64,000 bases of DNA from Euglena gracilis (lineage: Eukaryota), in assembly GCA_039621445.1 (NCBI GenBank), contig CP154954.1:33581455-33645454 (forward strand). Direction: 5' to 3'. How positions within the stretch are numbered: the first letter of the stretch is position 1; every line of letters starts with the position of its first letter. The notes under the pieces are model-generated. The model worked only from the letters and a program-made list of their open reading frames with translations, was not told the origin of the DNA and made no database searches. Made by a program: the position numbers and the translations under genes. This document shows, piece after piece, positions 539 through 63,167 of this stretch.

Positions 539-3100
539 GTGAAGGACCCCTATCCCTGCGACCTAGCACCCGGCCCCATTGCGGACGACCAACTTGCACT
601 ATGGCCTCAGGGCCTTCTAAGTTGTCAAATGTGGCCCCAGGGCACGCCAACCACGTACGGCAACCGATTAACCAGGAAAACGCGGTATGGGTACAGTCCC
701 CCCTGGTGTGGCAGGGGCAAAAGCCTTGCCAGTTGTGGCGACATTGAAAGCAACCCAGGTCCCACAGAAACCCGCCCTCCCCAGCAGGAGGACGTTGAAA
801 TGGCCTCAGCCGCACAGACCTCTGCTGTGGCTGACGGAGCTACCGCTCCTTGGATCTTGGTTTCCAATGCACTCGACGCCGCTGTTCTCGCCTACTTTGT
901 CCCAAGCTATAATGCCGTTTCCCAGTTTGAACGGGGGCCCCGGGGCACCCGCAGCTGAACAAATCATGGTCATTGACGAACTAGAGTCCCGGGTGCGCTC
1001 AGCGATTTCCGAAATTCACGGGTGTGCGCCGCAGGGCCAGGGGATGATTGAGAATTTTGTGCCGTCCTCACCACAAGGGCAAGAGCAACAGTGCCAAAAT
1101 GGTCGAAGGCCGCAGCACCCCGTGGCTGTAGCACCAGCGCAATCCTCGACGAACGCTGATACGCTGCAAGTCACTCCCTTCTCGCAACCTTGCCCACCAC
1201 TGCAGCCATCTTGGGAAGAAATTTCCCAAGACACGCGGGGCACGTTGGTCCATATCCCACGGGGAGCGTTGCGAAACGTTGGGCTCGCCTTTTGCAGCAC
1301 CCTCAGTCGCTTTGTATCAAAACCAGGATGGGAAACCCTACACACACTTTGGTGCTTCCCAAAAGCTGTGCTTGCTCCACTGAAGCGGAGCGGGAAAAGC
1401 CATTGGGCTGCAGTTGGACAGAAAATTACTGAGAGAGCCAATGCCTACCTCAACCGGTTCACAGAAGATTCGTGGGATGAGACTCGCCAAATTCGCGATG
1501 CACAAAACCCAAAGAAGAGAACACGAAGTCAGACAAAAAATTTCGATGCAGAAAGCCAAGAAAGATTGTGCAACCGTGTTCAAAGCCTTGTCAGCCATGG
1601 GGCGGTCAGTAAAGCCTGCCGCATGCCAACTTCTGATGGAATCCAAGATGCAGATGACCCGCTAATCTTGGAACGGTTGGCTGCCTTGCACCCTCCTGAA
1701 CCCCAACCTGGAAGGCAAAATCTGCCTCCGGACTTCCCTCGCCTCGAATTCGATCTCAGTGAAGATGCAACCAGGGAGCGCCTAATTGAAATACGGAAAG
1801 CAGTCATGTCTTTCCCGAAGGAGTCCTCACCAGGACCGTCTGGACTTCGTCCAGATCATCTTAAAGACGTACTCTCTGATCCCCTGGGGACACAATCAGA
1901 ACAACTCCTCACAATTTTGGACCAATTCGTCCGAACATGTTTGACAAACGGAATTCACAACTCTGCGGCATGGGTTTTCGCTGGTGCCCGTTTGACTCCT
2001 CTTCGAAAACCCTGCAATCCAAGCGAAAACCTTGATGAGCTTGGCAATACCAACCCCATTTCTGACCCAAAGAAGGATGGCACGCGACCAATTGCAGCTG
2101 GGGAATGCCTGCGCCGATTGGTGGACAAATATTTGATGAGGCACCCCAAAATCAGGGACCTCCTTAAAGAACTGCAGCCACTACAATGCGGTGTAGGGGT
2201 CCAGGGGGCATGTGAACTCATTGCTATGGGACTGCAGCAAGACGTGAATCACCTGCACATGCAACAGGACAACACCTGGGCTTTGTTACAGGTAGATTTC
2301 AGCAATGCTTTTAATTGCGTGAAAAGAAAGACAGTCGTTGCTGAAGTGGCTAAACGCTGCCCGGAGGCGTACGTTTGGTTCGAGAGTTGCTACGTCGAAC
2401 ACAGCCCGCTCTTTTGTGGGTCATCACACCTTCGGAGTGCCTCTGGCGTACAACAAGGGGACCCTTGTGGCCCAGCCGGATTCGCCTTGGCGTTGCAATC
2501 TCTCGTCGAGTCCTTGCAAGACGTGGTGCCACTCCAATTGTGGTATTTGGATGATGGACACATCCTGGGAACCCTCCCACAATTACATGCAGCAATTACA
2601 GAAATTCAACGACAGGGGACGCTACTAGGCATACACCTCAACGCAAAAAAATGCCGCCTGTGGGGCCCTGCAGCAACAGAAGCCAATCGTGCTGAAATGC
2701 CGCAAAACAGCCCACTTCGTGCAGTCCCAATCGTGAACTACTCCCCTAATTCTGGTATACGGGCCCTGGGAATCCCGGTATGCCATCCACAAAGCGGAGG
2801 CTTTGCGGGGGAAGTGTGGGCTGAACGTGCAACAGGTGTGCAGAAAGCTTGCCGGGCCCTTTTGAACCTGCCTCAAGCCCATATTCAGTTCTGCCTCTTA
2901 CGAACCTGCCTAGATGCTTGCAAAGTTAATGACCTCCTGCGTGCAACAGAACTGGGGCAGGCAAATGACGCATGTGCTCTGTTGACCAAAGAAATCAGGA
3001 ACACAATGAGCAACATTGTTGGATCCCCAATCGATGACAACCAATGGGCTCAGGCCACCCTACCCGTGCGTCATGGCGGACTCGGAAATCGGGACCCATC
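539..3100 (+). pseudogene. Leader-2A-RT polyprotein of element A; frameshift at ~900-960; endonuclease lost
   Basis: The 2A lies in ORF 539-958 and the RT in ORF 687-3455, a different frame. RT-like sequence ends at GGLGNRDP (~3100). Confidence 0.8.
710..763 (+). other. 2A-like StopGo peptide GRGKSLASCGDIESNPG|P
   Basis: Exact D(V/I)ExNPGP consensus with T2A-like upstream context. Confidence 0.85.
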
Positions 3101-3219
3101 ACCATTCGGGACCCATTCAGAGTCAGTGAAGCCACCTCTGCGTACCATGTTGGGGGTCGGGGAGGACCCCGCTCGCCCGGGGGGGCTGCCGGGGCCGCAA
3201 CCACTTTTTTCTGGCCCTG

Positions 3220-3552
3220 TGTTTACGTTGGTCGTCACCACCCGCCGTTGGACGGCCACCGGGCAGCTCATACTGCTTGCCGTGGCACGCCCTCAGGCGG
3301 GGAACTACACCCAAGGTCCGGCCAACCAGTGTCTCGTCCTTGGGCGCAGTTACACGCGCCGGTCGATCCCCGCGGTATGCCCTCTGCCCGTACGGGATCG
3401 ACCAGGACTCACACGGCGGGACCTGGGTCTCGAACCCACGACCTCCCGCGTGTGAGCCCAGCACCTTACCGAATAAGCTACTCGAGCGATACTCGGCTTG
3501 GTACTACGCGCCGGCTACCAACCTCTGTAGGATCTCCCGTCTGCCGCACACA
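3220..3552 (-). repeat. TRIM 3' LTR
   Basis: Apparently identical to 3910-4242 (offset 690); TG...CA termini. Confidence 0.95.
3415..3487 (-). ncRNA. tRNA-Val(CAC)-like sequence / internal Pol III promoter in the TRIM LTR
   Basis: Minus strand reads GCTCGAG-TAGCTTATTCGGTAAG (A box)-...-CTCACAC-GCGGGAGGTC-GTGGGTTCGAGACCCAG (B box/T arm). Acceptor and anticodon stems are degenerate. Confidence 0.75.
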
Positions 3553-3562
3553 CTCCCCTCCC
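3553..3562 (-). other. Polypurine tract of the TRIM (GGGAGGGGAG)
   Basis: Purine run directly abutting the 3' LTR on the minus strand. Confidence 0.8.
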
Positions 3563-3900
3563 AAGAGCCTTACTACACTAGCCCACTGCGTCACTATGGC
3601 CGTGGCCCCTGCAGCTCGGGTTATGCCTCACACGGCCCTAGTTGGCTGAGTGCTTCTCACGAGTACTGCGTCACCAGGCTGCCGACCCCTGCAGCTCGGG
3701 TTTGCTATTGCCGGCAGTTTACGTGTTGTCGACTTCCACGGGCTCTGCCGCCTTGGAGCGTCCCCCTTTGCATCGGCTTGAGACTTTGGAACGGTGTAGG
3801 AGTTTCAGTCGCCCTAGACTCGGCGCGTCCGCCTCCGCCTTCCGGGCGCCGTGGGGTCAGGCTCTGATTTCCCGGTTCGTGTGGCATTAGACGGGTTCCC

Positions 3901-3909
3901 CTGCTACCA
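3901..3909 (-). other. Primer-binding site TGGTAGCAG (initiator tRNA-Met type)
   Basis: Immediately follows the CA end of the 5' LTR on the minus strand; complementary to ...CUGCUACCA. Confidence 0.85.
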
Positions 3910-4242
3910 TGTTTACGTTGGTCGTCACCACCCGCCGTTGGACGGCCACCGGGCAGCTCATACTGCTTGCCGTGGCACGCCCTCAGGCGGGGAACTACAC
4001 CCAAGGTCCGGCCAACCAGTGTCTCGTCCTTGGGCGCAGTTACACGCGCCGGTCGATCCCCGCGGTATGCCCTCTGCCCGTACGGGATCGACCAGGACTC
4101 ACACGGCGGGACCTGGGTCTCGAACCCACGACCTCCCGCGTGTGAGCCCAGCACCTTACCGAATAAGCTACTCGAGCGATACTCGGCTTGGTACTACGCG
4201 CCGGCTACCAACCTCTGTAGGATCTCCCGTCTGCCGCACACA
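3910..4242 (-). repeat. TRIM 5' LTR
   Basis: Copy of 3220-3552, followed on the minus strand by the PBS. Confidence 0.95.
4105..4177 (-). ncRNA. tRNA-Val(CAC)-like sequence, second LTR copy
   Basis: Same sequence as 3415-3487. Confidence 0.75.
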
Positions 4243-7200
4243 CCCTGGAGGGCTCAGGCCAGGGCCTTTCTGAAATTGGGCCCCGTTTTCGAACATGCCA
4301 ACCGGCGGTAAAGGGGGTGAGGTGTGCCCCCCCGACCCGGGGTCCCCGGTTGCCCCGCGTAGGATCTTTTTTTCCCTCCACTGTTGGTTTTTTCCCATTT
4401 CTCAACTTGAACTTTCAGGATGAATCCACAAAGACAAAAACCAACCCACCTACTTAGGTGAGCAAATCTGCAGCACAAGACAAACCTGACTTGGAGGGTT
4501 GGGAGTACCTGGGTTCAGGAAACCTGCTGCTTGGGGTAGAAGATCAGTTGGAAAGCAATGCCTTGGTTTCTTGGAATAATTGAATTGTCCTTTTTGATCT
4601 TTCAATTCTCAATTGACTTTTCTGCACTTGTGATTCTCAAATCGAATTCTCAAATTCTTGCTGGAATTTGCTGGGGTTCCAATTCCACTCGCGTGGCTGT
4701 TGACTTGCTCTGGTGGTTCCTACTGGGGGTTTTTGGGAATTTTCTGGGAAATTTTTGGCTGCCGACGCCAGCGGCAGCCGACACCCCCTCCCTTGCGACG
4801 TTAGTCGGACCCGTTTTTCTCCCCCCCCCCCCGAGCAAAAACGGGGAGAAGGAGTTTTTTTTTTGTGGGGGGCGAAAATTCCGTTTGGGTTTTTTTTAAA
4901 AAAACGGGTCCTGTCGCTTTTTTTTTGAAAATCAGCGTTACGCGTGTGACCCCCCCCCCCAGCCATAATATCGGGCACCTTGGGGGATTCTGAAAAATCA
5001 GGTCTACGGGGGAAGCCCCCCAAACCCTTTCCTCCGACAAGCATGGGGAACGGGTCTTTGAACACAAAATCTGAAAATTCTGAGTGAAACCAACTCTGGG
5101 CACTCCACCCCAAGGCCTAAGTCCCACGCTACCCCCTTGGTGAAAATCCTTTTGGCAGCTTTCATTGTGTGAAACTTCATTTGTCGATTTTTTTTAAAAA
5201 AAAATCAGGGACTTTGGCCAACAGTGCCTCAAAAAATGACTTGTGTGGGGAAGGAAAAGAGAAACCTAGGCATTCCTTTCCAATTCGGGACAGAAGGGTG
5301 AGGAAAAGGTTGAAGGTGAATGGGTGCAATGGTGAGAGGGTAAGACGGTTATATACGGCGGGAATAGTGTACAGATGTGTGCGGGTTTGTGTGCGTGTCC
5401 GGTTGTGTGTTTTGTGTGTATGCACGCTCACTTCCTTGTCATGCATTCCAACCGAAAATGACTGGGCCGATCGATTTTTTTTTGAATGCAAAGAGAACAG
5501 GGCTTCACATTGGCCCTCAGCCACTATATCACAGGGCTTTAGTGCCCACGTGGCTGTTTTTTTTCCTTTTCATTGGCCCACAACAGGGCCTATGGACGGA
5601 GGAGGGGTCATCTCCGGTCCAGGGTCCCCCCCCCCCCGAGTTCGGATGCCTCCAAGCTGTGTTCCATGAAAAAAATGCCTTTGACGAATATCCAATAGTC
5701 CAAACCGAATCAAAAAACTGAGTTTGAAAATCCCAACTCGTTTTCCATCCTCCAGAAAAATCATCGAAATCCCAGGTTTTTTCCAACTCTTTGTGTAAAA
5801 ATCCTCCAGAAACAAAAATCCTCAAAAAATCAAAAATCAGGGTCCAACCCACAAGTCCAGGGCCTACAAGAGCCCTCAACATCGAGAATTCCAAACTGCC
5901 ACCACATCCAGCAAACAAAGTCCAACCCACAGAAGCAACATCGAACAGCATACCGTTGCATAGGGGCCAGGCCATTCCAGCCCAACCCTGGGCACAACCA
6001 ATTCACAGCCGAAACCAACCAATTCGGCTTGCCAATTAAAATTCACTGCCCCCCCCCCCCAGTCATACGGGGCAATGGGGGTCAAATGACATGGCAAACT
6101 CAAAAACACTGAAAATTTATATCCAATTTTCTCAGCCAAAGCGATTTTTCACTGCCCCCCCCCCCCATTCACATGGGGCCATGGGGGTCAATCTGGCTTC
6201 AGCCTCCAAACAAAAAAATCACAAACCTGGGCCGTAATATCCAAACCGGCTGAAATCTCACACATGTCAAAGGACGGGCCTTCACAATGCCGCCCCCCCC
6301 CCCACCGTCAACCAGTGCGGGGAGGGCCATGGGTTAAAAATTCCTGGCTGCAAAATCAGAATCCCCATTCGACAAATAAAATGGGGAAAATGGAAATATC
6401 ATCAAACCCCGTCACATCTGGGGTATGACCAAAACAATCACGGTCACAATATGATGCATTCCTGTCCCCACCCAAACGTCTCACAGGGGTATCCAATTCT
6501 GAGTCAAAAATTCCAACCGTAAAGCCAAAACTGATTTTGATCCACCACACCAACACAGCTCATGTGGCTCAACACCCCCCCCCCCCCAGCAACACAGGAA
6601 GAGGGAGAGCGAACCCAGTCCAACCACTCGGAAACAAGAAAACTGCAACTCAGCCCCTGGCACCATGGGAGCTGCCCACCAGTTTGAATCTCGGCTTGCC
6701 CCTTGTTTGGGCAATTGTGTCAAAGGCTCGGTGGAGGTCAGCCATTAGACTTCTCCCCCAGCCAGGTGACTGAAGTCCAAAAAACTCAAACTCCTTGGCC
6801 AGAACATGAAATTCACCAATCAATCCATATCCCAGCTTTGAGCTTCTCTCCCCAGCACAGAATTGTAATCATGACAATCAGAATCATGTGATTCAATTGT
6901 TTGGGTCCCATTGATTTCATTAAGTCTGTTCTCCAACTCGACTTGAAATGTTCATAATCCCAGTCTTTGAAGTCCTTTCTTTGCAAACTGTTGCAATTTT
7001 TGAATTCAATAAATTCAATCAAATTCCTTGATGACTTGTCTGCTTTGTTGTTCAATGTCAATGTAATCATCATTGTCCTGGTCAACAAACTTGAACTTGT
7101 TGAATAAGTCATCAAACTCGAAATTCTCAAAATCTCTTGTGTTGATTCTTTTTTGGTGCTTGATTTCTTGCTTGCTTGCAAAACCTGCAAGACAAAGGAA

Positions 7201-14941: not shown

Positions 14942-15280
14942 GTACCTTTGAATTCAGGTGTTGAGTGGGAGAAAGAATGTGGAAATGAATGCCTTGATTT
15001 CCTTGGATAATTGAATTGTCCTTTTTGATCTTTCAATTTTCAATTGACTTTTGTGCTTTTGTGATTCTCAATTCGAATTCTCAAATTCTTGCTGGAATTT
15101 GCTGGTGTTCCAATTCCACTCGCGTGGCGGTTGACTTGCTTTGGATATTCCTACTGGGGTTTTTGGGAATTTTCTGGGAAATTTTTGGCTGCCGACGCCA
15201 GCGGCAGCCGACAACTCTCACCCGCACAGGACTTCGGCCTAACCCAGCACACCAGAGTAATCCAAAAAAAAAAATAAGGC

Positions 15281-16260
15281 GGCAAGGCGCAAGGGCGCAA
15301 ACCAGAAGGGCCCGGCGAGGAGGTCCGAGGGAAACGGAGTATTGCGTCCCTGAGGAGCTCCTTCCACCGCACCTGTTTACCATCCGGGGATGCAACTCCT
15401 GCAGTTTGACCCAGACAGCCGGATCGGAAGAGCGGTGGGTTCCTTCGAACAAGAGAACTTGCAGGGCCTTCGCAGGGGCCCCTTCCCCCACCAACGTGCG
15501 GGCACGGCGGAGAACAGCGGCCGGTATGGCGGCGGGCTCGGTGCGTGCTCTTTTGGCTGCCCGCGTCTCGATGGACGCTGGTGGGAGACGGGTGGCGTTT
15601 CTCAGCTCTGTCATCAGCGTTCCATTGTCCCCTTGCCGGAACAGTTGGACGCGCCGCCTGATCGCGGTGGAGATGTCCTCATCGGCCTCACGCCCCGCAC
15701 TTTGGACTGTCCGAAGCAGTTTGGGGAAGGCGAGGGTGGCGAACAGGCTGTCCATGGTTGGCCTGCTGACGTATTCCTCTATGACATTGGAGAGGGTCTC
15801 GGACACGTCACGTTGGTTGGCCGCAGGCACATGAAGGATCGTGTTTGCGCGGCAGAGGAAGACCTCCTGGAGGTTGGCCGGCTGGGGCGGGATGGTGATT
15901 CCGGGCGGGCCACCGTGACGGAGGTCAGAGTTCTTTCCGCTTTGGTCGACCACCACAGCCGCGGGTGTGTCGTCAGCTGGGTGTGCTAAATCGTTTTGTG
16001 CTGTCACGAGGCGCCTCCGCGGACACGACAACCGACGTGGCTGACCTCTTTCTGCCTCCCGGCGGACCTGGGTTGCTTTCAATGTCCCCGCAGTACAAGA
16101 GGCTCCCTCGGCCCGTCTTGGCGGGCGCTCGGCAATAGGGGAGTTGTCCATTAGGTTGATCATAATGTGGTCCACGGTGCACCGGGGAGTCACGGCAGGT
16201 AAGCGCGATTCCCCTTCGGCGATTGGTTGGGAAAGCCCTCCTACACACCGGCGCCGCCAA
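15281..16260 (-). mobile_element. Inverted 5' part of CRE element B (2A, N-terminal region, up to SSPGPSGLRP)
   Basis: Minus-strand frames give GRGSLLYCGDIESNPGP, LAFPKLLR, RARTLVGEGAPAKALQVL and FPRTSSPGPSGLRP. Confidence 0.85.
16063..16113 (-). other. 2A-like peptide GRGSLLYCGDIESNPG|P
   Basis: 14/17 identical to Thosea asigna T2A GRGSLLTCGDVEENPGP. Confidence 0.9.
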
Positions 16261-16267
16261 GGACTAA

Positions 16268-18190
16268 GTGGGCCGGCTGAGTCCCCTGCAGGTAGGGGTT
16301 GGGGTCCCCAATGCGTCCGAATCCGTCGCCATGGCAACCCAAAGTCTGGTCCGGAAACTGGATCCGCAGGGGAACTGGGCCATTCTTCAGGTGGACCTGA
16401 AGAACGCCTTCAACACACCGGACAGAAATGTCCTTCTACAAGAAGCGCAAACGCGCACTCCAGCGCTTTTCAACTACCTGCGCTTCGCCTACGGCCAGCC
16501 GGCACCGTTGTTCAGCGGAGGACGCGTGCTCCACTCCACGAGAGGCACACACCAGGGTTGCCCCCTGGGACCCCCTGGCTTTGCAGTGGGCCTCCACACC
16601 ATCAGCGAGACCATCAGCCAGCAAGCAGAGTTGCTCTGGTCCTCATGGTACCTGGATGATGGGGTGCTTGTCGGTGAGCCCTGGGCTTTGCAGAAGTGCC
16701 TCGAGTTCCTGCGGACCGAAGGCGCACGCAACGGGGTCCAATTGAACCCGGCGAAATGCGTCGTATGGGGTCCGGCTGCTGGCGCACTCCCTGACCGCGA
16801 GAAGGTTCAAGTTGTACCCTGGGTCGAGGGCTCTGGGATCACTGTCCTGGGCTGCCCCGTCGACTTCCCAACCACGGCAGGGCACACAGTGGCAGCATGG
16901 ACGGAGGCAACAACCAAGCTGGAACAGGCTGCGGACCTAGTCACCTCGGTCACTGACCCCCAGCTGGCGCACCACATCCTGAGGTCTTGACTGGACGGCT
17001 GCAGAGTTAACCACCTCCTGCGCGCCTCTGATCCCTACCAGGCGCAGGGTGAAGTGATTCGGTGCAGTGAGACGATCTTCGGTGCCTTTAAGGACATCAT
17101 CGGCCAAGCCCTCAGCACAGACCACCGCCTGCAGGCCTCGCTACCGCTGTCACAAGGTGGGTGTGGCCTTCGTATTCCCGCCTCCCACCAAGCAGCAGCC
17201 CGTACCGCCGCCCTGTGCCAGTTCTACACACATGGACATAAGCGGGTCGCATGTCCAAGCTACGCGGCCGCCCCGGACGACCGGCTCTGCCAGCAAGCCG
17301 CCAGTGACCTTGGCTCCGTCCTCGGCACCCGTCACCCTGAGAGCAACCGGCTGACAGCATCAGCAGCCTTCGCCTCTGCATCGGCAAATGACACCTCGCA
17401 GAAATGGTGGCAGACCCAACTATCCAAGGCCCATGTGGACGCCCTCATCGCCACGTGGTCTGCAAGGGACCAGACACGTCTTATGGAACAGCTCAACGGT
17501 ATCGGCCACGGCTGGATGGCAGCAGCCCCCAATGAGGCTCTGCACACGGTGATTGAGCCCACCGACTACTGCCTTGGCCTAAAGTGGTGGCTTGGGCTGC
17601 CCCTGGCTGACACGCCAACCACGTGCGCGGGGTGCCATTCTGTGGCAGACATCCACGGGGATCACGACATGTGCTGCATTCGGAACAACTTTGCAAGCCG
17701 ACACAACGCCGTTCAGGAAGCCTTATTCAACCTCCTTTCCGCGAACGGCCAGAGTGTCCAACGCGAGGTGCCAGTACCAAACCAGCCAGACGCCTCCCTG
17801 CGACCAGCGGACCTGTTGCTGGCAACATGGCAAGACGGGAAACCGACCGCGGTAGACATCGCGGTTGCACACGGCTGGCAGTCTGCTGAGAGGACAGCGT
17901 CCAGGGAACGATGGAGAACCTTCCTCAAACGGAAGGAGACCGCAAAGCACGCCAAGTACTACATATTGTGCCGAAACGGGGGCTGGTCCTTTGCCACGCT
18001 GGCATTTGGGACATGGGGAGGCCTGGGCCCGGAGAGCGCCAAGCTGCTGACAAGACTGATCGAACGATCGACCTCCTGGGATCAAGGCGACGTGCGTTTG
18101 ACGCGGCAGGCTGAGAGCTACCAGAGCTTGGCATTGGCCCTGTTCAAGCAGATCACTCAGTTGCTACGACCGAAGCATGTGCTTCGCTGA
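16268..18190 (+). pseudogene. RT plus restriction-like endonuclease of CRE element B; in-frame TGA at 16988
   Basis: QVDLKNAFN, GTHQGCPLGP, WYLDDG, CAGC..HDMCC, RHNAVQ, RPADLL, AVDIAV, KHAKY. ORFs 16268 and 17054 share one frame. Confidence 0.9.
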
Positions 18191-18717
18191 TTCACTGTCT
18201 AACATCTGACAGCGATACCAGCAACACGGACCTCGACCCGGCTGACCCCGGCTGGCCACTACACGTCTCCACCGGCGGCTCATCTACCTCCGACAAAAGA
18301 TCAGGACAAGGCACGACGCAGATGGCCGCCCAAAGGGCGAGGCCATCGGCGCAAACGATACACAAAGGCATTCATCCGCTACCGGCATTCCCGGCACAGA
18401 GGGCGCACCAAGACAGCCTACGAAGCAGCCACTGCTCCCAGAACACGGACAATACGGTTCAACGCTACAGGCACAAGCCTCTACTGCCGCTGCCCGCGGG
18501 CACCTTAACCTCCCTGCCATTCAACCACCTCCTCACCCACTTTCTCCCACGCCCCGCGAACCTCCTCACCCTGTCATCCCCTTGCGCTTTATACTTTATA
18601 ATGAAGATGGGCTTTGCCCGTTTTCCACCCGCTGAGCCCTGCGACAGTCGATACCTCTGCCTATCCATGGGGTTCCCCCTTCTGTCCATAGCCCCTGTCT
18701 CCCCGGAACACTCAAAT

Positions 18718-18761
18718 CCAGTAGGCTGTGCCACTGGTCGGTGGATTCGGTTCGCCCCACC
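18718..18761 (+). other. Conserved 3'-terminal double hairpin (element B)
   Basis: CCAGT-A-GGC-TGT-GCC-ACTGG-TC-GGTGG-ATTC-GG-TTCG-CC-CCACC; recurs at nine places in the window. Confidence 0.8.
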
Positions 18762-21700
18762 ACAGTATTTTTGTCTCATGTGGAAAAAAAACGACGACTT
18801 GCAGCCTTCTTCTCACTGGAGAAGGACACGGTGGTGGGGCGAGCCGAGTCCACCGACTAGTGGCACAGCCTACTGGATTTGAGTGCTCAGGGGGAGGGCT
18901 ATATACAGAAGCGGAAGCAGCAGTCTGTCAGAGGTAGAGGTACAGGAGAAGGCGTGTAAAGCCGAGCGGTCTTGGTAGCAGCGGAGACGGAGGGACGAGG
19001 GGAAACTTGGCGGATGAGGTGCGTTGGGGGTGAGAGGCGGAGGGCGTGGTGGCTGGTGTGTGTGTGTGTGTGTGTGTTTTGTGTGTGCTTGCGGTTTTTT
19101 TTTTGGAGGGATGGGATGTGAGATTGGTAGGTCATCTTTGCTCAATCCATTGCATATGGGCTATGGGTGGTGGGATCCACCTCTCCAGATGGCTCCGCCA
19201 CCGCACCCCATGCCAGCTGGCGGGCCACTTCTCTTGCCAATGTGAGACTCAGGGTTTGCCAGACGGAGGCTTTAGATGAGCGTCGTTGAAAAAACATCTG
19301 TTTGAGCCAATACAGTGCGGAGGCATTTGGTGATGAAGGTTGCAGCCTGCTCCCCCACGCCCCCAAAGCAGTCCAGCACGAATGGGATGAACGAACGAAC
19401 GAACAAATGAATGAATGAACGTCCACCCAAGGCGTTCACAGGTGGCTGCGTATTTGCGGCATTTTTTGGCTTCCTGTAATTCGTGCCACCGTGCTACGGC
19501 TTCTTTTGTGGAGACCGGATTGGCTGGCTGGAGCGGGTGACGCACCGTGACATCCACTGCTGCGGGTCCGTCAGCATCGTCCCTGGTAATGAAGACATCG
19601 CCGAGCCTTGTCTGGTTGTCTGCCACCTCTTCTCTTCGGGCCATGAATCCCGCTTTCCTTGCAAGCTCCACGACAAACGTTTGAAGGGCACCATGTCGCC
19701 GCAAAGTGTTGTTTTTTGGGCAGCAGACAAGGCGATTTCCGCCAAAGTCCATTTGCTGGTGGCAACGAGGGCATTCTGGCAAGGAACCATCTGGCATTGT
19801 CGGGCAAATTGCACACCCTAGAGACCATTGCGTCAGCGCTCTGAATTCGGCTGGTGGAATGAGTGTTTTCAGTGGAGCAGAGGGATTAACCGCAGCCCAG
19901 GCCATGGCGTGTGGCTTCCGCTGGCAGGTAAAACGGACTGCGTCGTTTCCTGCAAAGCTGCCCAAAAGTAGGTCAGCCCGTACTTTTACGACCTCATATG
20001 TCCAAAACTTCTGTCTCGTCATTGTGGGGGACAAGGAGCTCACTTTGCTTGGGTCCGCAAGGATGTCAGTGAGAGGTGCCAACCCTTTGTTGAGACTCGA
20101 AATTAGCAAGCCCGTCTCGCCATGGTCACGTGGAAGCTGAGGGCAGCCTTCCGGTTGGCCCAGAGTGCTGTGGGAGAGGAAACCCAGGATAGCTGCCCAT
20201 CTGGCCGGTGTTCTGGCTGCTTCTGGGTCTCGGATCCCCAGTCCTCCCAAGCGGACAGGAAGTGAGGCCTGTGCCCATTGTTTGTCGTCCATTGGGCGGG
20301 CGGTGATGACCGACATTGTGTCCCGTAGGATGCTGGAGGAGGAATGGCACTGTATTTTAGCACCCGAGAGGCGCGTGGTTCGCAGCAAATCATTCACTTT
20401 GCAGGCATCAAGGCATTGCCTGAGCACAGTGAATTGTAGATGCGGTGACGGCACCAATTGTAACAGGTGGCACGCCTTCTGGACACCGGTGAGGCGCTCC
20501 TCCCAAAGGAGGGAGGCAAATTCAGGCGTTCCACCCGGGTGGCAAACAGGCGCGCCGAGTGCGCGAATGCCGGTGCCGGCTGTGAAAGGCTCGACCGGGA
20601 TGCCCTGAAGGATGCCTTCTCCGTGCTCCACAAAGGCTGGACCACACAGTCTGCATTTCGCCAAGTTGAGACCTACACCAATCCGTGGTCCCTCAGATAC
20701 AATCAACCAAACTGCCCTCTCAAGCTGCTCCGGTGTGCCCATGACGTGGGCATCATCCAGGTACCAGGCTTGCCAGCCCACGATGCCTTGCAGTTTGTCC
20801 AGCAATGGCTGTATCCCGAGGGCAAATGCGGCCGGCCCGCACGGGTCCCCTTGCTGCACACCAGACTTGCTTCGGAGGGATGTCTTTCCCAGATACAACC
20901 GAGAATGGCGTGCGTAGCAGCTCTCCAACCACGGCAGCAGGGAGGGGACATCTATCGGCGACCTCGGCCAGTAAGTTCTCTCTTGATATGCAATTGAATG
21001 CATTTGAGAAATCCAGCTGGAGTAACCCCCAGTCAACCTTCCCGATATGGGACAGGCCGTCAACTATCTGCTGAATGCCCATGCTTATCAATGCGCATGC
21101 GTCCGGTACACCTACCCCCAGCTGTTGTGGCAAGGCGGTAGCCAGGGAGCGGCGGACTTCTGTGTGGCGCATTAGCACTTTTGCCACCAGGCGTCGGAGG
21201 GTTTCCCCGGCAGCAATGGGCCGTGTGCCTTCCTCTTCAGGGGATGTTTTGTTTACGGGGTCGGTGGGTGCGCCGGTCCCTGTTTTTGTTTTGCGGAGTG
21301 GCGTGAGGCGATCCGCACATAGCACTTGCGCTGGTCCATCAGGGATTCCCTTCATTACACAACCGAAGACAAATTCTGTCAACTCGTCCAGGAGGTCTTC
21401 TGCAAAGCTGCCAGCTTCATCACTGAGGAGGGACTTCAGATGTTCAGGACGCAGTCCTGAAGGGCCTGCGGATGATTCAGGGCCGAAGCGCCGTACTGCC
21501 TGTTTCACCATGCGGCGGTCATCTGCCAAGTCCTCGCAGCGAGAGGGTGGTTTTAACCTTGTGGGAGGGCCCCTTCCTGGTTCTTTCTCTGTTGGGTGCA
21601 TTCGGCGTAATCTCTCCCGCACAACGGGATGAGCCGCATCCTGGACTCCTTCGGAGAGAAGTAACTGGCATGCCTTGCCCACGGCTCCTCTCGCCACCGG

Positions 21701-38029: not shown

Positions 38030-38464
38030 ACATTTGGATCAAAAGGTGAACAAGGACAAAACCAACCCACCTACTTAGGATCAAACAGCAGAGCACAACA
38101 AACCTGGGGCTTGAGAGGGTGGGCAAGTACCTTTGAATTCAGGTGTTGAGTGGGAGAAAGAATGTGGAAGTGAATGCCTTGATTTCCTTGGATAATTGAA
38201 TTGTCCTTTTTGATCTTTCAATTTTCAATTGACTTTTGTGCTCTTGTGATTCTCAATTCGAATTCTCAAATTCTTGCTGGAATTTGCTGGTGTTCCAATT
38301 CCACTCGCGTGGCGGTTGACTTGCTTTGGATATTCCTACTGGGGTTTTTGGGAATTTTCTGGGAAATTTTTGGCTGCCGACGCCAGCGGCAGCCGACAAC
38401 TCTCACCCGCACAGGACTTCGGCCGAACCCAGCACACCAGAGTAATCCAAAAAAAAAATAAGGC

Positions 38465-41400
38465 GGCAAGGCGCAAGGGCGCAAACCAGAAGGGCCCGGC
38501 GAGGAGGTCCGAGGGAAACGGAGTATTGCGTCCCTGAGGAGCTCCTTCCACCGCACCTGTTTACCATCCGGGAACGGTGGTACTTCGCCGGGCAGCGCAT
38601 TGAGGCTTACTGGGCGTCCAGCGGGATGCAACTCCTGCAGTTTGACCCAGACAGCCGGATCGGAAGAGCGGTGGGTTCCTTCGAACAAGAGAACTTGCAG
38701 GGCCTTCGCAGGGGCCCCTTCCCCCACCAACGTGCGGGCACGGCGGAGAACAGCGGCCGGTATGGCGGCGGGCTCGGTGCGTGCTCTTTTGGCTGCCCGC
38801 GTCTCGATGGACGCTGGTGGGAGGCGGGTGGCGCTTCTCAGCGCTGTCATCAGCGTTCCATTGTCCCCTTGCCGGAACAGTTGGACGCGCCGCCTGATCG
38901 CGGTGGAGATGTCCTCATCGGCCTCACGCCCCGCACTTTGGACTGTCCGAAGCACCAGTTTGGGGAAGGCGAGGGTGGCGAACAGGCTGTCCATGGTTGG
39001 CCTGCTGACGTATTCCTCTATGACATTGGAGAGGGTCTCGGACACGTCACGTTGGTTGGCCGCAGGCACATGAAGGACCGTGTTTGCGCGGCAGAGGAAG
39101 ACCTCCTGGAGGTTGGCCGGCTGGGGCGGGATGGTGATTCCGGGCGGGCCACCGTGACGGAGGTCAGAGTTCTTTCCGCTTTGGTCGACCACCACAGCCG
39201 CGGGTGTGTCGTCAGCTGGGTGTGCTAAATCGTTTTGTGCTGTCACGAGGCGCCTCCGCGGACACGACAACCGACGTGGCTGACCTCTTTCTGCCTCCCG
39301 GCGGACCTGGGTTGCTTTCAATGTCCCCGCAGGACAAGAGGCTCCATCGGCCCGTCTTGGTGGGCGCTCGGCAATAGGGGAGTTGTCCACCAGGTTGATC
39401 ATAATGTGGTCCACGGTGCACCGGGGAGTCACGGCAGGTAAGCGCGATTCCCCTTCGGCGATTGGTTGGGAAAGCCCTCCTACACACCGGCGCCGCCAAG
39501 GACTAAGTGGGCCGGCTGAGTCCCCTGCAGGTAGGGGTTGGGGTCCCCAATGCGTCCGAATCCGTCGCCATGGCAACCCAGAGTCTGGTCCGGAAACTGG
39601 ATCCGCAGGGGAACTGGGCCATTCTTCAGGTGGACCTGAAGAACGCCTTCAACACACCGGACAGAAATGTCCTTCTACAAGAAGCGCAAACGCGCACTCC
39701 AGCGCTTTTCAACTACCTGCGCTTCGCCTACGGCCAGCCGGCACCGTTGTTCAGCGGAGGACGCGTGCTCCACTCCACGAGAGGCACACACCAGCGTTGC
39801 CCCCTGGGACCCATCGGCTTTGCAGTGGGCCTCCACACCATCAGCGAGACCATCAGCCAGCAAGCAGAGTTGCTCTGGTCCTCATGGTACCTGGATGATG
39901 GGGTGCTTGTCGGTGAGCCCTGGGCTTTGCAGAAGTGCCTCGAGTTCCTGCGGACCGAAGGCGCACGCAACGGGGTCCAATTGAACCCGGCGAAATGCGT
40001 CGTATGGGGTCCGGCTGCTGGCGCACTCCCTGACCGCGAGAAGGTTCAAGTTGTACCCTGGGTCGAGGGCTCTGGGATCACTGTCCTGGGCTGCCCCGTC
40101 GACTTCCCAACCACGGCAGGGCACACAGTGGCAGCATGGACGGAGGCAACAACCAAGCTGGAACAAGCTGCGGACCTAATCACCTCGGTCACTGACCCCC
40201 AGCTGGCGCACCACATCCTGAGGTCTTGACTGGACGGCTGCAGAGTTAACCACCTCCTGCGCGCCTCTGATCCCTACCAGGCGCAGGGTGAAGTGATTCG
40301 GTGCAGTGAGACGATCTTCGGTGCCTTTGAGGACATCATCGGCCAAGCCCTCAGCACAGACCACAGCCTGCAGGCCTCGCTACCGCTGTCACAAGGTGGG
40401 TGTGGCCTTCGTATTCCCGCCTCCCACCAAGCAGCAGCCCGTACCGCCGCCCTGTGCCAGTTCTACACACATGGACATAAGCGGGTCGCATGTCCAAGCT
40501 ACGCGGCCGACCCGGACGACCGGCTGTGCCAGCAAGCCGCCAGTGACGTTGGCTCCGTCCTCGGCACCCGTCACCCTGAGAGCAACCGGCTGACAGCATC
40601 AGCAGCCTTCGCCTCTGCGTCGGCAAATGACACCTCGCAGAAATGGTGGCAGACCCAACTATCCAAGGCCCATGTGGACGCCCTCATCGCCACGTGGTCT
40701 GCAAGGGACCAGACACGTCTTATGGAACAGCTCAACGGTATCGGCCACGGCTGGATGGCAGCAGCCCCCAATGAGGCTCTGCACACGGTGATTGAGCCCG
40801 CCGACTACTGCCTTGGCCTGAAGTGGTGGCTTGGGCTGCCCCTGGCTGACACGCCAACCACGTGCGCGGGGTGCCATTCTGTGGCAGACATCCACGGGGA
40901 TCACGACATGTGCTGCATTCGGAACAACTTTGCAAGCCGACACAACGCCGTTCAGGAAGCCTTATTCAACCTCCTGTCCGCGAACGGCCAGAGTGTCCAA
41001 CGCGAGGTGCCAGTACCAAACCAGCCAGACGCCTCCCTGCGACCAGCGGACCTGTTGCTGGCAACGTGGCAAGACGGGAAACCGACCGCGGTAGACATCG
41101 CGGTTGCACACGGCTGGCAGTCTGCTGAGAGGACAGCGTCCAGGGAACGATGGAGAACCTTCCTCAGACGGAAGGAGACCGCAAAGCACGCCAAGTACTA
41201 CATATTGTGCCGAAACGGGGGCTGGTCCTTTGCCACGCTGGCATTTGGGACATGGGGAGGCCTGGGCCCGGAGAGCGCCAAGCTGCTGACAAGACTGATC
41301 GAACGATCGACCTCCTGGGATCAAGGCGACGTGCGTTTGACGCGGCAGGCTGAGAGCTACCAGAGCTTGGCATGGGCCCTGTTCAAGCAGATCACTCAGT

Positions 41401-42000
41401 TGCTACGACCGAAGTATGTGCTTCGCTGATTCACTATCTAACATCTGACAGCGATACCAGCAACACGGACCTCGACCCGGCTGACCCCGGCTGGCCACTA
41501 CACGTCTTCACCGGCGGCTCATCTACCTCCGACAAAAGATCAGGACAAGGCACGACGCAGATGGCCGCCCAAAGGGCGAGGCCATCGGCGCAAACGATAC
41601 ACAAAGGCATTCATCCGCTACCGGCATTCCCGGCACAGAGGGCGCACCAAGACAGCCTACGAAGCAGCCACTGCTCCCAGAACACGGAAAATACGGTTCA
41701 ACGCTACAGGCACAAGCCTCTACTGCCGCTGCCCGCGGGCACCTTAACCTCCCTGCCATTCAACCGCCTCCTCACCCACTTTCTCCCACGCACCGCGAAC
41801 CTCCTCACCCTGTCATCCCCCTGCGCTTTATACTTTATAATGAAGATGGGCCTTGCCCGTTTTCCACCCGCTGAGCCCTGCGACAGTCGATACCTCTGCC
41901 TATCCATGGGGTTCCCCCATCTGTCCATAGCCCCTGTCTCCTCGGAACACTCAAATCCAGTAGGCTGTGCCACTGGTCGGTGGATTCGGTTCGCCCCACC
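38465..42000 (+). mobile_element. Duplicate of CRE element B (inverted 5' part 38465-39499; RT-RLE 39507-41429)
   Basis: Near-identical translations; 3' motif at 41957-42000. Confidence 0.9.
39302..39352 (-). other. 2A-like peptide GRWSLLSCGDIESNPG|P
   Basis: Duplicate of 16063-16113 with two substitutions outside the core motif. Confidence 0.88.
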
Positions 42001-42111
42001 ACAGTACTTTTGTCTCATGTGGAAAAAAAAAGACGACTTGCAGCCTTCTTCTCACTGGAGAAGGACACGGTGGTGGGGCGAGCCGAGTCCACCGACTAGT
42101 GGCACAGCCTA

Positions 42112-42340
42112 AACCCCCCCCCAAATAACACCCCCCCCCCCCAAATAACACCCCCCCCCAAATAACACACCCCCCCCTCGGGGGCCGATTTCGAGCGCCC
42201 AAATAACACCCCCCCCCCTGTTTTCCTTTGGTTTTCCATGTAAAAATAACACCCCCCCAAATAACACCCCCCCCCCCTGGGGCCTCAGTTCGGGTGCCCA
42301 AATAACAAACCGGGGGGGTGTGTTATTTGGGGGGGGGGTT
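42112..42340. mobile_element. 229-bp MITE with TA target duplication (Tc1/mariner-type)
   Basis: TIRs AAC(n)AAATAACAC / GTGTTATTTG(n)TT with TA on both sides. Empty site cagccTActgg at 18866-18876. Confidence 0.9.
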
Positions 42341-56860: not shown

Positions 56861-56914
56861 CCCCTAGGTCCCCTAGGGCTTGGGCCCTTGTAAAAGGAAT
56901 TTTTTTCTGGGGAT

Positions 56915-60337: not shown

Positions 60338-60420
60338 GGGAGCCCGAGGTCCGAGGGCACGGACCTCTGGGCTGATGAACAGATGGAGGTAGGACCTGAT
60401 CAACCCTGCCCCCCCTGCCC
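60335..60420 (+). promoter_or_regulatory. Candidate gag-pol UAG readthrough signal (stem-loop, possible pseudoknot)
   Basis: TAG-GGG-AGCCC GAGGTCCG agggca CGGACCTC t GGGCT; loop GGGCA is complementary to TGCCC at 60407 and 60416. Confidence 0.55.
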
Positions 60421-63140: not shown

Positions 63141-63167
63141 AGGATCATCCTCTCGGACTTTGAGCAT

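What the first reader, a model, noticed from the sequence alone, without database searches (positions are those of the whole stretch)
3220..4242. Young TRIM with a tRNA(Val)-derived Pol III promoter in each LTR and no TTT on its sense strand
Seen: identical 333-bp LTRs, CCCTG TSD, PBS and PPT, and a sense-oriented tRNA-like block (A box, CTCACAC loop, GGTTCGAGACC B box). By eye I find no AAA on + across 1023 bp, so no U-run terminator on the transcript. A 10-bp stem (ggtcgatccc/gggatcgacc, 3361-3403) lies downstream. Known: Cassandra TRIMs carry 5S sequence in their LTRs, and as I recall Helenus TRIMs carry tRNA-like LTRs. Inference: a Pol III-transcribed LTR parasite in a probable euglenid.
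Basis: partly seen in the sequence, partly recalled or inferred. Interest (0 to 1): 0.72.

Follow-up and report, generated by a model that had tools for sequence, protein, structure and literature searches.

The report
Miniature LTR retrotransposon with tRNA-Val-like repeats
This is a freshly inserted, gene-less 1-kb LTR retrotransposon whose two end repeats each carry a worn copy of the host's own valine tRNA gene, likely serving as a built-in RNA polymerase III promoter; this type of element (Helenus) was described in 2024, so it is a well-documented new example and not a new kind.

Summary
There are two identical 333-bp LTRs, a CCCTG target duplication, a primer site, a polypurine tract, a tRNA-like block on the minus (sense) strand, a 10-bp stem, and no TTT on the sense strand.

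It is a non-coding TRIM of a young, high-copy family. The 27-nt core has 1,296 exact copies in the genome, and independent copies carry different 5-bp duplications.

- **tRNA-Val origin:** the block aligns best with the genome's own tRNA-Val(CAC) gene. It scores 15.8 bits against 61.7 for the real gene, so it is not a tRNA.
- **Primer site:** it pairs with 12 nt of the host initiator tRNA.
- **Conserved core:** across sister families, the tRNA-like block and two hairpins are the conserved part of the LTR.
- **T-run avoidance:** this is real. Forty copies carry 12 TTT against 256 AAA. All 27 sampled junctions from other LTR families using the same primer have TTTT.

The element matches Helenus/TRIMp3 (Kojima 2024). 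Earlier notes of this scan reached the same reading for other copies in this genome. Verdict: new member of a known kind.

The parts
3215..3219 (.). Target-site duplication, left copy (CCCTG)
   Evidence: Identical to 4243-4247. 5-bp duplications of differing sequence flank 11 of the 18 distinct LTR-bounded units examined, 10 of them independent insertions.
3220..3552 (-). 3' LTR in the sense orientation, 333 bp, TG...CA ends
   Evidence: 333 of 333 identical to 3910-4242.
3361..3403 (-). Hairpin 2 of the 3' LTR: 10-bp stem with a 23-nt loop, downstream of the tRNA-like block
   Evidence: Perfect complement. Present in the consensus fold of 12 LTR modules. One stem pair is G-C in this family, G-U in family B and A-U in families A2 and C (columns 92/132).
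3408..3456 (-). Hairpin 1 of the 3' LTR: the anticodon-loop region pairs with the sequence after the T arm, and box B sits in the tip loop
   Evidence: Predicted in the single-sequence fold and in the alignment fold. The pairing CTCACAC/GTGTGAG is kept in families A, B, C and E.
3415..3487 (-). tRNA-Val(CAC)-derived block in the 3' LTR. Box A-like TAGCTTATTCGG lies at 3469-3480 and box B GGTTCGAGACC at 3426-3436.
   Evidence: Rfam tRNA 15.8 bits, full-length alignment. Best match is the genome's own tRNA-Val(CAC) gene.
3553..3562 (-). Polypurine tract GGGAGGGGAG abutting the 3' LTR
   Evidence: Read from the sequence. Conserved in families A and B.
3553..3909 (-). Internal region, 357 bp, non-coding, with a 38-nt imperfect direct repeat (3585-3622 and 3665-3702)
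   Evidence: repeat D2. No Pfam family in the 6 longest open frames over the element. No unusual RNA fold, z = +0.88. About 94% identical to the internal region of family B.
3898..3909 (-). Primer-binding site TGGTAGCAGGGG, 12 nt complementary to the 3' end (plus CCA) of the host initiator tRNA-Met, with one G.U pair
   Evidence: The tRNA-iMet(CAT) gene was found in the genome. Many sister copies carry the fully matching TGGTAGCAGAGG.
3910..4242 (-). 5' LTR in the sense orientation, 333 bp
4105..4177 (-). tRNA-Val-derived block in the 5' LTR (box A-like 4159-4170, box B 4116-4126). The predicted polymerase III start would lie near 4177.
   Evidence: The start site is inferred from tRNA gene architecture and was not measured.
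4051..4146 (-). Hairpin 2 (4051-4093) and hairpin 1 (4098-4146) of the 5' LTR
   Evidence: Same sequence as in the 3' LTR.
4243..4247 (.). Target-site duplication, right copy (CCCTG)
672..3219 (+). Host of the insertion: open frame of a retrotransposon with a reverse-transcriptase domain, most likely a non-LTR element. The TRIM interrupts it about 8 codons before its stop.
   Evidence: Pfam RVT_1, E = 1.8e-13. With the TRIM and one duplication copy removed inside a script, the frame ends at residue 857. The non-LTR assignment is my inference.

Best explanation
This is a recently inserted, non-coding terminal-repeat retrotransposon in miniature (TRIM) of the Helenus/TRIMp3 type, and the tRNA-Val(CAC)-derived block in each LTR likely acts as an internal RNA polymerase III promoter.

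**Shown**
- The element's anatomy, its youth and its copy number.
- The 5-bp target duplications.
- The origin of the block from the host tRNA-Val(CAC) gene.
- The 12-nt primer site for the host initiator tRNA-Met.
- Across sister families, the tRNA-like block plus two hairpins is the conserved core of the LTR.
- T-runs are avoided on the sense strand.

**Inferred**
- Polymerase III would start near the 5' end of the block, about position 66 of the 5' LTR (window 4177, minus strand).
- It would read through the T-run-free element and, finding no terminator in the 3' LTR, probably stop at a T-run in flanking DNA.
- The RNA would be packaged and reverse-transcribed from a tRNA-iMet primer by proteins of an autonomous LTR element. 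This partner is probably Ty3/gypsy-type, and its integrase would make the 5-bp duplication.
- The partner has not been identified.
For: **Anatomy**
- Searches show the parts listed above.

**Mobility and youth**
- The LTR search found 1,420 first-look candidates. The 41 scored matches are 98-100% identical.
- The 27-nt stretch from the anticodon loop to box B has 1,296 exact copies.
- Among the first 100 of these, 27 neighbour pairs lie 676-718 bp apart, 1 pair lies 563 bp apart, and 40 are unpaired.
- 11 of the 18 distinct LTR-bounded units examined carry 5-bp duplications. Two share one duplicated locus, so 10 are independent insertions, each with a different duplication.

**tRNA-Val origin**
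- The genuine tRNA-Val(CAC) gene scores 61.7 bits (ARAGORN).
- It aligns with the LTR block from position 1 to about 66.
- It is the top scorer of the 7 host tRNA species for modules A, B, D, E and F: 27-36 against 22-28 for the runner-up, tRNA-Val(AAC).

**Promoter-type constraint**
- Between families A and B, LTR positions 27-90 are only 60-67% identical. Positions 91-180 are 93-100% identical, and family B lacks the tail altogether.
- In 13 LTR modules aligned with the real gene, the invariant columns include tRNA positions G10, G18, A21, G53, T54, C56, A58 and C61. Variation in the box B stretch falls mainly on the two positions that the recalled consensus GGTTCGANNCC leaves free.
- Family B's box A, TAGATTATTGG, differs at 2 of 11 positions from that of the real Val gene.
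- Only about 65 nt of poorly conserved sequence lie upstream of the block. That leaves little room for a separate upstream promoter.

**T-run avoidance**
- The 40 distinct full-length copies (24 of family A, 16 of family B) carry 12 TTT and 2 TTTT on the sense strand, against 256 AAA and 19 AAAA. TTT occurs in 8 copies, 7 of them of the more diverged family B, and TTTT in 1 decayed copy.
- All 27 sampled junctions from other iMet-primed LTR families have TTTT. Their means are 20.3 TTT and 7.6 TTTT per 690 nt.
- 30 of 33 genuine tRNA genes have a run of T3 or longer within 15 nt downstream: 19 have T4 or more, 11 have T3 only.

**Primer**
- The host tRNA-iMet gene was found.

**Machinery**
- The Copia reverse-transcriptase family RVT_2 gave 0 matches in the genome.
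- The integrase family rve gave 12,378 candidates.
- Both sampled polyproteins have the Ty3/gypsy domain order, and one has a chromodomain.

**Tandem units**
- LTR-internal-LTR-internal-LTR units exist. Read-through of an LTR would produce such units. Cassandra and the zebrafish Helenus LTR-11_DR form similar arrays (PMC7215508 passages; PMC10886601 section 3.8).
Against: - There is no RNA evidence of any kind.
- The block is a poor tRNA: 15.8 bits against a threshold of 29, with the acceptor and anticodon stems mostly unpaired. ARAGORN finds nothing.
- The box A region differs between families A and B, and family A has an extra base there.
- The LTR has no T-run terminator, whereas Cassandra has one in its LTR (PMC7215508 and PMC10886601 introduction). 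A polymerase III transcript of this copy would run 131 nt past the element to the first TTT and 512 nt to the first TTTT. The median distance to TTTT over 34 copies is 186 nt.
- A length of 1 kb lies near the top of the reported Helenus range (311-1263 bp), which the Helenus paper links to weak polymerase III processivity (PMC10886601 Discussion).
- The same conserved stretch is predicted to fold into two stable hairpins instead of a cloverleaf. The sense LTR has z = -5.96 and the antisense -3.10. The conservation could therefore reflect an RNA structure and not a promoter.
- Copies share ancestry, so the counts are not independent events.
- Dinucleotide shuffles do not mark the missing TTT as unusual.
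- Polymerase III promoter rules in this host lineage are not known to me.
Confidence: 0.6

Rival explanations
1. The element is a TRIM transcribed by polymerase II or by read-through from neighbouring DNA. The tRNA-derived block is a captured relic. It is kept because it folds with the adjacent sequence into two hairpins that act in cis on the genomic RNA, for example in packaging, dimerisation or strand transfer.
For: - The cloverleaf is not maintained.
- The single-sequence and alignment folds place the anticodon-loop region in a long helix with the sequence after the T arm, followed by a 10-bp hairpin.
- The sense LTR RNA is much more stable than shuffles (z = -5.96), the antisense less so (z = -3.10), and the internal region not at all (z = +0.88).
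- One hairpin-2 pair runs G-C / G-U / A-U across families.
- The LTR has no polymerase III terminator.
Against: - Loop bases of the T arm (GGTTCGA) are conserved although pairing does not need them. Variation falls mainly on the two free positions of the box B consensus.
- Only about 65 nt of poorly conserved sequence lie upstream of the block.
- Avoiding T-runs has no obvious purpose for a polymerase II transcript, and the 27 sampled junctions from other LTR families do not avoid them.
- RNAalifold counted 0 of 38 pairs as changed on both sides, so covariation support is thin.
Confidence: 0.25
2. The tRNA-like block is an RNA-processing signal. RNase P or RNase Z would cut long read-through transcripts at the block and so define the ends of the genomic RNA, with the block itself serving as the terminal repeat (R).
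For: - The block lies at the same place in both LTRs.
- No promoter or terminator motif other than the block is evident.
- An earlier scan note reports other small LTR elements in this genome that seem to define their 5' end by processing (e1-7334932, not checked here).
Against: - The acceptor stem that these enzymes need is mostly unpaired in family A: 4 of 7 pairs in the Rfam alignment.
- Its 3' strand is absent in families D and E.
- The predicted fold is not a cloverleaf.
Confidence: 0.05
3. The LTRs spread working tRNA-Val genes, so the family enlarges the host's tRNA pool.
For: - The anticodon-position triplet CAC and the T arm are intact.
- The Helenus paper considered this for a few fungal and bivalve families (PMC10886601 section 3.5).
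Against: - The block scores 15.8 bits against 61.7 for the real gene and a threshold of 29.
- ARAGORN reports none in the window or in the sister-family loci it scanned (L107, L108, L116-L119).
- The acceptor and anticodon stems are broken.
- No terminator follows the block.
Confidence: 0.02

Closest known systems
Helenus (TRIMp3), Kojima 2024, Biology 13:119, PMC10886601 (abstract, Results, Discussion, figure legends and Tables 1-2 read; supplements not opened)
   Same: - A short non-coding element with two LTRs, a primer site, a polypurine tract and a target duplication.
- A tRNA-derived block in each LTR that keeps box A-like and box B motifs but is not a credible tRNA.
- Total length (1023 bp) within the reported 311-1263 bp.
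- Several families co-exist in one genome, with solo LTRs and tandem arrays.
- The fish families in that paper were also aligned with tRNA-Val(CAC) (legend of its Figure 2c).
   Different: - The host is not among the reported groups (fungi, six animal phyla, one lycophyte). The words Euglena, protist, Excavata and Discoba do not occur in the paper.
- The 333-bp LTR is longer than the longest reported there (323 bp).
- The 5-bp duplication and the iMet 3'-end primer resemble the fungal and plant cases. Those were linked to Copia, but here no Copia reverse transcriptase was found, and the two autonomous elements I sampled are Ty3/gypsy-type.
- I could not test sequence relatedness to any published Helenus family, because no Repbase copy was at hand.
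Cassandra, plant TRIM with 5S rRNA-derived LTR sequence (Kalendar et al. 2008 recalled; PMC7215508 passages and PMC10886601 introduction read)
   Same: - A TRIM whose LTRs carry a small-RNA gene fragment with an internal polymerase III promoter.
- It forms tandem LTR-internal arrays.
- Its LTR RNA is strongly structured.
   Different: - Cassandra's module is 5S-derived, with boxes A, IE and C.
- It has a polymerase III terminator in the LTR, giving an 18-nt terminal repeat on the RNA.
- This element is tRNA-derived and has no T-run anywhere on its sense strand.
- Cassandra's polymerase III transcription has experimental support. This element's has none.
Ajax, nemertean TRIM with a 5S promoter fragment (PMC10886601)
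   Same: A TRIMp3-type layout, a 5-bp duplication, and a tRNA 3'-end primer site.
   Different: Ajax carries a 5S-derived promoter and uses a tRNA-Leu primer.
tRNA-derived SINEs (SINE2)
   Same: A degenerate tRNA head with A and B boxes. The Helenus paper proposes a SINE inserted into an LTR as the source of such modules.
   Different: - SINEs have no LTRs, primer site or polypurine tract, and LINE machinery moves them.
- Every diverged copy of the module that I inspected lay in an LTR context. I found no free-standing SINE with this head, but this was not an exhaustive census.

Membership tests
Helenus / TRIMp3 | Short, non-coding element bounded by two direct LTRs | tested here: met
   1023 bp with identical 333-bp LTRs. 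No Pfam family in the 6 longest open frames.
Helenus / TRIMp3 | Primer-binding site next to the 5' LTR, complementary to a tRNA | tested here: met
   12 nt pair with the 3' end plus CCA of the host tRNA-iMet gene, with one G.U in this copy.
Helenus / TRIMp3 | Polypurine tract next to the 3' LTR | tested here: met
   GGGAGGGGAG at 3562->3553, conserved in family B.
Helenus / TRIMp3 | Target-site duplication (4 bp in animal families, 5 bp in fungal and plant families) | tested here: met
   5 bp here and in 11 of the 18 distinct LTR-bounded units examined, 10 of them independent insertions with differing sequences.
Helenus / TRIMp3 | tRNA-derived sequence in each LTR with box A (TRGCY...YGG) and box B (GGTTC) kept | tested here: met
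   Full-length Rfam tRNA alignment at 15.8 bits. TAGCT...CGG and GGTTCGAGACC are present. Homology to the host tRNA-Val(CAC) gene.
Helenus / TRIMp3 | Transcription from the tRNA-like polymerase III promoter | not testable with these tools
The Helenus paper also leaves this unvalidated (PMC10886601 section 4.1).
Helenus / TRIMp3 | Sequence relatedness to a published Helenus family | not tested
   No Repbase copy was available, and the paper's supplements were not opened.
Cassandra | 5S rRNA-derived sequence in the LTR | tested here: not met
   No 5S match at E up to 10 in 3100-4400.
Cassandra | Polymerase III terminator (T-run) within the LTR | tested here: not met
   No TTT on the sense strand of the whole element.
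Functional tRNA gene | Score above the Rfam tRNA gathering score, with a cloverleaf | tested here: not met
   15.8 bits against 29. The real Val gene scores 61.7. ARAGORN finds none.
tRNA-derived SINE | A single tRNA-headed unit without LTRs, moved by LINE machinery | tested here: not met
   The block lies inside LTRs of an element with a primer site and a polypurine tract.

The most novel reading that the evidence does not exclude
The whole genomic RNA of this TRIM superfamily is made by RNA polymerase III from the tRNA-Val-derived module, and the element has no terminator of its own. It has been purged of T-runs down to TTT because this host's polymerase III stops at very short T-runs: 11 of 33 real tRNA genes have only TTT within 15 nt downstream. 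The RNA therefore ends in flanking DNA, and the repeat used for strand transfer is most of the LTR. This would be the first polymerase III-driven LTR retroelement outside land plants with a defined rule for its sequence composition. It would also give a handle on polymerase III start and stop signals in a lineage where they are little known.
Probability: 0.35. Interest if true: 0.55.

Novelty: new member of a known kind. Interest (0 to 1): 0.35.

Why it matters
**Host range.** The element extends the Helenus/TRIMp3 type to a host group outside those reported (fungi, animals, a lycophyte). This holds if the genome is a euglenid, as earlier notes of this scan say.

**Origin.** Here the source of the LTR module can be shown directly, because the host's own tRNA-Val(CAC) gene is at hand for comparison.

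**A test of the polymerase III idea.** The family offers a clean natural test. It is young and abundant, it comes in sister families that share only the tRNA-like block plus two hairpins, and it avoids T-runs while other LTR families with the same primer do not.

**Annotation.** More than a thousand tRNA-like LTR copies can inflate tRNA or SINE counts in genome annotation. The Helenus paper showed this for rust fungi (PMC10886601 section 3.5).

Tried and rejected
**RNA evidence.** I tried nothing else on that question, so expression, start site and strand remain open.

**Autonomous partner: not identified.**
- A pattern for the LTR end plus the long primer-site region, excluding the TRIM's own LTR end, gave 8 places. 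All 8 were diverged TRIM copies.
- A pattern for CA plus the 12-nt iMet site not followed by A gave 1,034 places. The 30 loci fetched came from many unrelated LTR families, with no similarity to the TRIM beyond the site.
- Two pairs of module copies spaced 10-12 kb apart proved to be segmental duplications and not the LTRs of a large element.
- Family D is an LTR fragment carried inside another repeat. Family E is a solo LTR.
- Three integrase loci fetched at random showed no LTR or primer-site relation to the TRIM.

**Primer tRNA.** A tRNA gene matching the first 18 nt of the primer-site region does not exist: ARAGORN called no tRNA in any of the 9 pattern matches. Only 12 nt are tRNA-complementary.

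**Free-standing SINE with the same head.** None was seen among the diverged copies inspected. This was not an exhaustive search.

**Rfam.** No family reaches its gathering score anywhere in the window. The weak mir-662 match on the + strand (19.4 bits, E = 1.9) only reflects hairpin 1.

**Rejected readings.** Functional tRNA, Cassandra membership, SINE, and chance repeat or assembly artefact. The last is excluded by the differing target duplications in independent copies.

**Literature.** No paper in the library links Helenus or TRIMp3 with Euglena. Subscription journals and Repbase are not covered.
Full report
**1. The observation**

- The direct repeats 3220-3552 and 3910-4242 are identical over 333 bp.
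- CCCTG flanks the element on both sides.
- The sense strand is the minus strand.
- Directly after the sense 5' LTR lies TGGTAGCAGGGG (3909->3898).
- Directly before the sense 3' LTR lies the purine run GGGAGGGGAG (3562->3553).
- Rfam's tRNA model aligns over its full length to 3415-3487 and 4105-4177 on the minus strand. The score is 15.8 bits (E = 5.4), below the gathering score of 29.
- ARAGORN reports no tRNA in the window, and no Rfam family reaches its gathering score.
- The box A-like TAGCTTATTCGG, the CTCACAC loop, the box B GGTTCGAGACC and the perfect 10-bp stem 3361-3370/3394-3403 can all be read directly.
- The + strand has no AAA in 1023 bp.

**2. It is a mobile, young, abundant TRIM**

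- The genome (G000, 2.37 Gb in 46 contigs) gave 1,420 first-look candidates for the LTR. The 41 scored matches are 98-100% identical.
- The 27-nt stretch from the anticodon loop to box B occurs exactly 1,296 times.
- Among the first 100 places listed, 27 same-strand neighbour pairs lie 676-718 bp apart (this family). One pair lies 563 bp apart, three have other spacings, and 40 are unpaired: solo LTRs, or mates with a changed core.
- Of 18 distinct LTR-bounded units in the first 30 loci, 11 have perfect 5-bp duplications. Two of these share one duplicated locus, so 10 are independent insertions, each with a different duplication. One of the 11 is a solo LTR, and two are three-LTR tandem units.
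- The six longest open frames over the element match no Pfam family.
- This copy sits in the open frame of a retrotransposon with a reverse-transcriptase domain, most likely a non-LTR element, about 8 codons before its stop.

**3. Where the LTR block comes from**

- A pattern search turned up the genome's real tRNA-Val(CAC) genes. They score 61.7 bits in Rfam.
- The LTR block aligns with this gene from position 1 to about 66.
- Of the seven genuine tRNA species found in the fetched loci, Val(CAC) is the best match to the modules of five families. Its scores are 27-36, against 22-28 for the runner-up, Val(AAC).
- The title claim "tRNA(Val)-derived" therefore holds. Only seven species were compared.
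- The block is not a tRNA. Its acceptor and anticodon stems are largely unpaired. The best-scoring sister module reaches only 21.4 bits.

**4. The primer**

- The genome's initiator tRNA-Met gene was found in several copies.
- Its 3' end plus CCA is complementary to the first 12 nt after the LTR. This copy has one G.U pair, and many sister copies have the perfect TGGTAGCAGAGG.
- The next 8 nt are specific to the element. ARAGORN called no tRNA at any of the 9 places matching the 18-nt complement.

**5. Sister families show what is conserved**

- I found a 789-bp family B with 217-bp LTRs. One copy has identical LTRs, and its duplications are also 5 bp.
- I also found variants A2, A3, C, E, F and G.
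- Families A and B share the internal region at about 94% identity, and the first 26 nt of the LTR.
- LTR positions 27-90 are only 60-67% identical between them. Positions 91-180 are 93-100% identical.
- Family B lacks the 116-bp tail of family A altogether.
- The conserved core of the LTR is thus the tRNA-like block from the D arm onward, plus about 60 nt downstream of it.
- In an alignment of 13 modules with the real gene, the invariant columns include G10, G18, A21, G53, T54, C56, A58 and C61. Variation in the box B stretch falls mainly on the two positions that the textbook consensus GGTTCGANNCC (recalled) leaves free.
- Family B's box A differs from that of the real Val gene at 2 of 11 positions.

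**6. Structure**

- The conserved core is predicted to form two hairpins and not a cloverleaf.
- In hairpin 1, the anticodon-loop region pairs with the sequence after the T arm, and box B sits in the tip loop. Hairpin 2 is the 10-bp stem.
- The sense LTR RNA is far more stable than shuffled versions (z = -5.96). The antisense is less so (z = -3.10), and the internal region not at all (z = +0.88).
- One pair of hairpin 2 is G-C in this family, G-U in family B and A-U in families A2 and C.
- RNAalifold itself counted 0 of 38 pairs as changed on both sides.
- This keeps alive the rival reading that the conservation is structural.

**7. T-run avoidance**

- Dinucleotide shuffles do not mark the absence of TTT as unusual: 46% of them have none.
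- Empirical controls do. None of 2,438 overlapping 690-bp windows in the rest of the window lacks TTT. None of the 361 windows matched for T content does either.
- In 40 distinct full-length copies (24 of family A, 16 of family B), the sense strand has 12 TTT and 2 TTTT against 256 AAA and 19 AAAA. The TTT lie in 8 copies, 7 of them of the more diverged family B.
- In 27 junctions from other LTR families that use the same iMet primer, taken in the same geometry, none lacks TTT or TTTT. Their means are 20.3 and 7.6 per 690 nt. Those families are also richer in T (22% against 16%).
- Genuine tRNA genes of this genome have a run of T3 or longer within 15 nt downstream in 30 of 33 cases: T4 or more in 19, T3 only in 11.
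- This is what one expects if polymerase III must read the whole element.
- The copies share descent, so these are not independent events. Absence of TTTT alone is common in T-poor DNA.

**8. What is missing**

- The LTR contains no terminator, whereas Cassandra's LTR does (PMC7215508 passages; PMC10886601 introduction).
- A polymerase III transcript of this copy would run 131 nt into flanking DNA to the first TTT and 512 nt to the first TTTT. The median distance to TTTT over 34 copies is 186 nt.
- I obtained no RNA data.
- The autonomous partner was not found.
- The Copia reverse-transcriptase family gave no match in the genome. The search's control genomes were prokaryotes and also gave none, so this is weak evidence.
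- The integrase family gave 12,378 candidates. Two sampled polyproteins have the Ty3/gypsy domain order.
- The 12-nt iMet site after a CA end occurs at 1,034 further places, and the 30 loci fetched came from many LTR families.

**9. Comparison with what is known**

- The element meets every structural feature of Helenus/TRIMp3 (PMC10886601).
- It differs in four ways: the host group; an LTR slightly longer than the longest reported; the combination of a 5-bp duplication and an iMet primer without detectable Copia; and the lack of any terminator, in contrast to Cassandra.
- The words Euglena, protist, Excavata and Discoba do not occur in that paper.
- My literature searches found no report of such an element in Euglena.
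- Earlier notes of this scan (e1-7358923, e1-9765938, e1-9549355) reached the same reading for other copies in this genome. I re-examined those three loci myself.
- I did not establish the organism.

**10. Verdict**

This is a real, intact and very young copy of a Helenus-type TRIM, and so a new member of a known kind. The polymerase III reading is the best-supported mechanism, at about 0.6, but it rests on sequence logic alone.

Noticed in passing
window 56894-63163 (+): A long open frame with a zinc knuckle (56894-60337) is followed by a frame with a weak Dam-like adenine methyltransferase match (60905-62158, E = 7e-5). A reverse-transcriptase frame follows (62159-63163). This fits an earlier scan note on a methyltransferase-bearing retrotransposon (e1-7335496). 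It also fits the title and abstract start of bioRxiv 10.64898/2026.05.21.726589, seen only in search listings.
   Followed up: no
L165:2522-8203 (G000:C11) and L168:3144-8147 (G000:C10): Two Ty3/gypsy-type polyproteins (reverse transcriptase, RNase H, integrase) were sampled. The first also has a chromodomain and a Dam-like domain in its N-terminal part. Both carry a weaker match to cytosine methylase.
   Followed up: partly
window 14998-18882 and 38266-42112: The same set of open frames recurs about 23.2 kb apart, for example two 399-residue frames at 16991-18190 and 40230-41429. This suggests two copies of one large repeat within the window.
   Followed up: no
G000:C1:14872277-14873991 (L014) and C1:12938583-12940297 (L015): Tandem TRIM units of three LTRs and two internal regions (1715 bp), flanked by one 5-bp duplication. 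The unit is present twice with the same flanks, which indicates a later segmental duplication.
   Followed up: partly
L111-L115, L138 (G000:C2, C10): Genuine tRNA-Val(CAC) and tRNA-Asp(GTC) genes lie on opposite strands about 40-80 bp apart, and this pair recurs at several loci. tRNA-iMet genes lie near tRNA-Val(AAC), tRNA-Asn(GTT) or tRNA-Leu(TAG) genes.
   Followed up: no
L038:712-870 and 1660-1800 (G000:C30): A family B TRIM is inserted in a 51-52-bp tandem repeat rich in C-runs and A-runs. L042 shows the same repeat.
   Followed up: no
G000, genome-wide: CA followed by the 12-nt initiator-tRNA primer site, and not by the TRIM's own next base, occurs at 1,034 places. The 30 loci fetched belong to several unrelated LTR families, so iMet priming with a ...CA LTR end is widespread among LTR elements in this genome.
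   Followed up: partly
L143:5572-5760 (G000:C1): An LTR element has three tandem copies of a two-part iMet primer site: the 3' end plus a T-arm complement.
   Followed up: partly
G000:C3:54173000-54188000 and C31:34923000-34938500: Blocks of 2.6 kb and 1.6 kb containing TRIM pieces are duplicated 10.3 and 11.6 kb apart at 96-97% identity. TRIM copies are therefore also multiplied by segmental duplication, which inflates the copy counts.
   Followed up: partly
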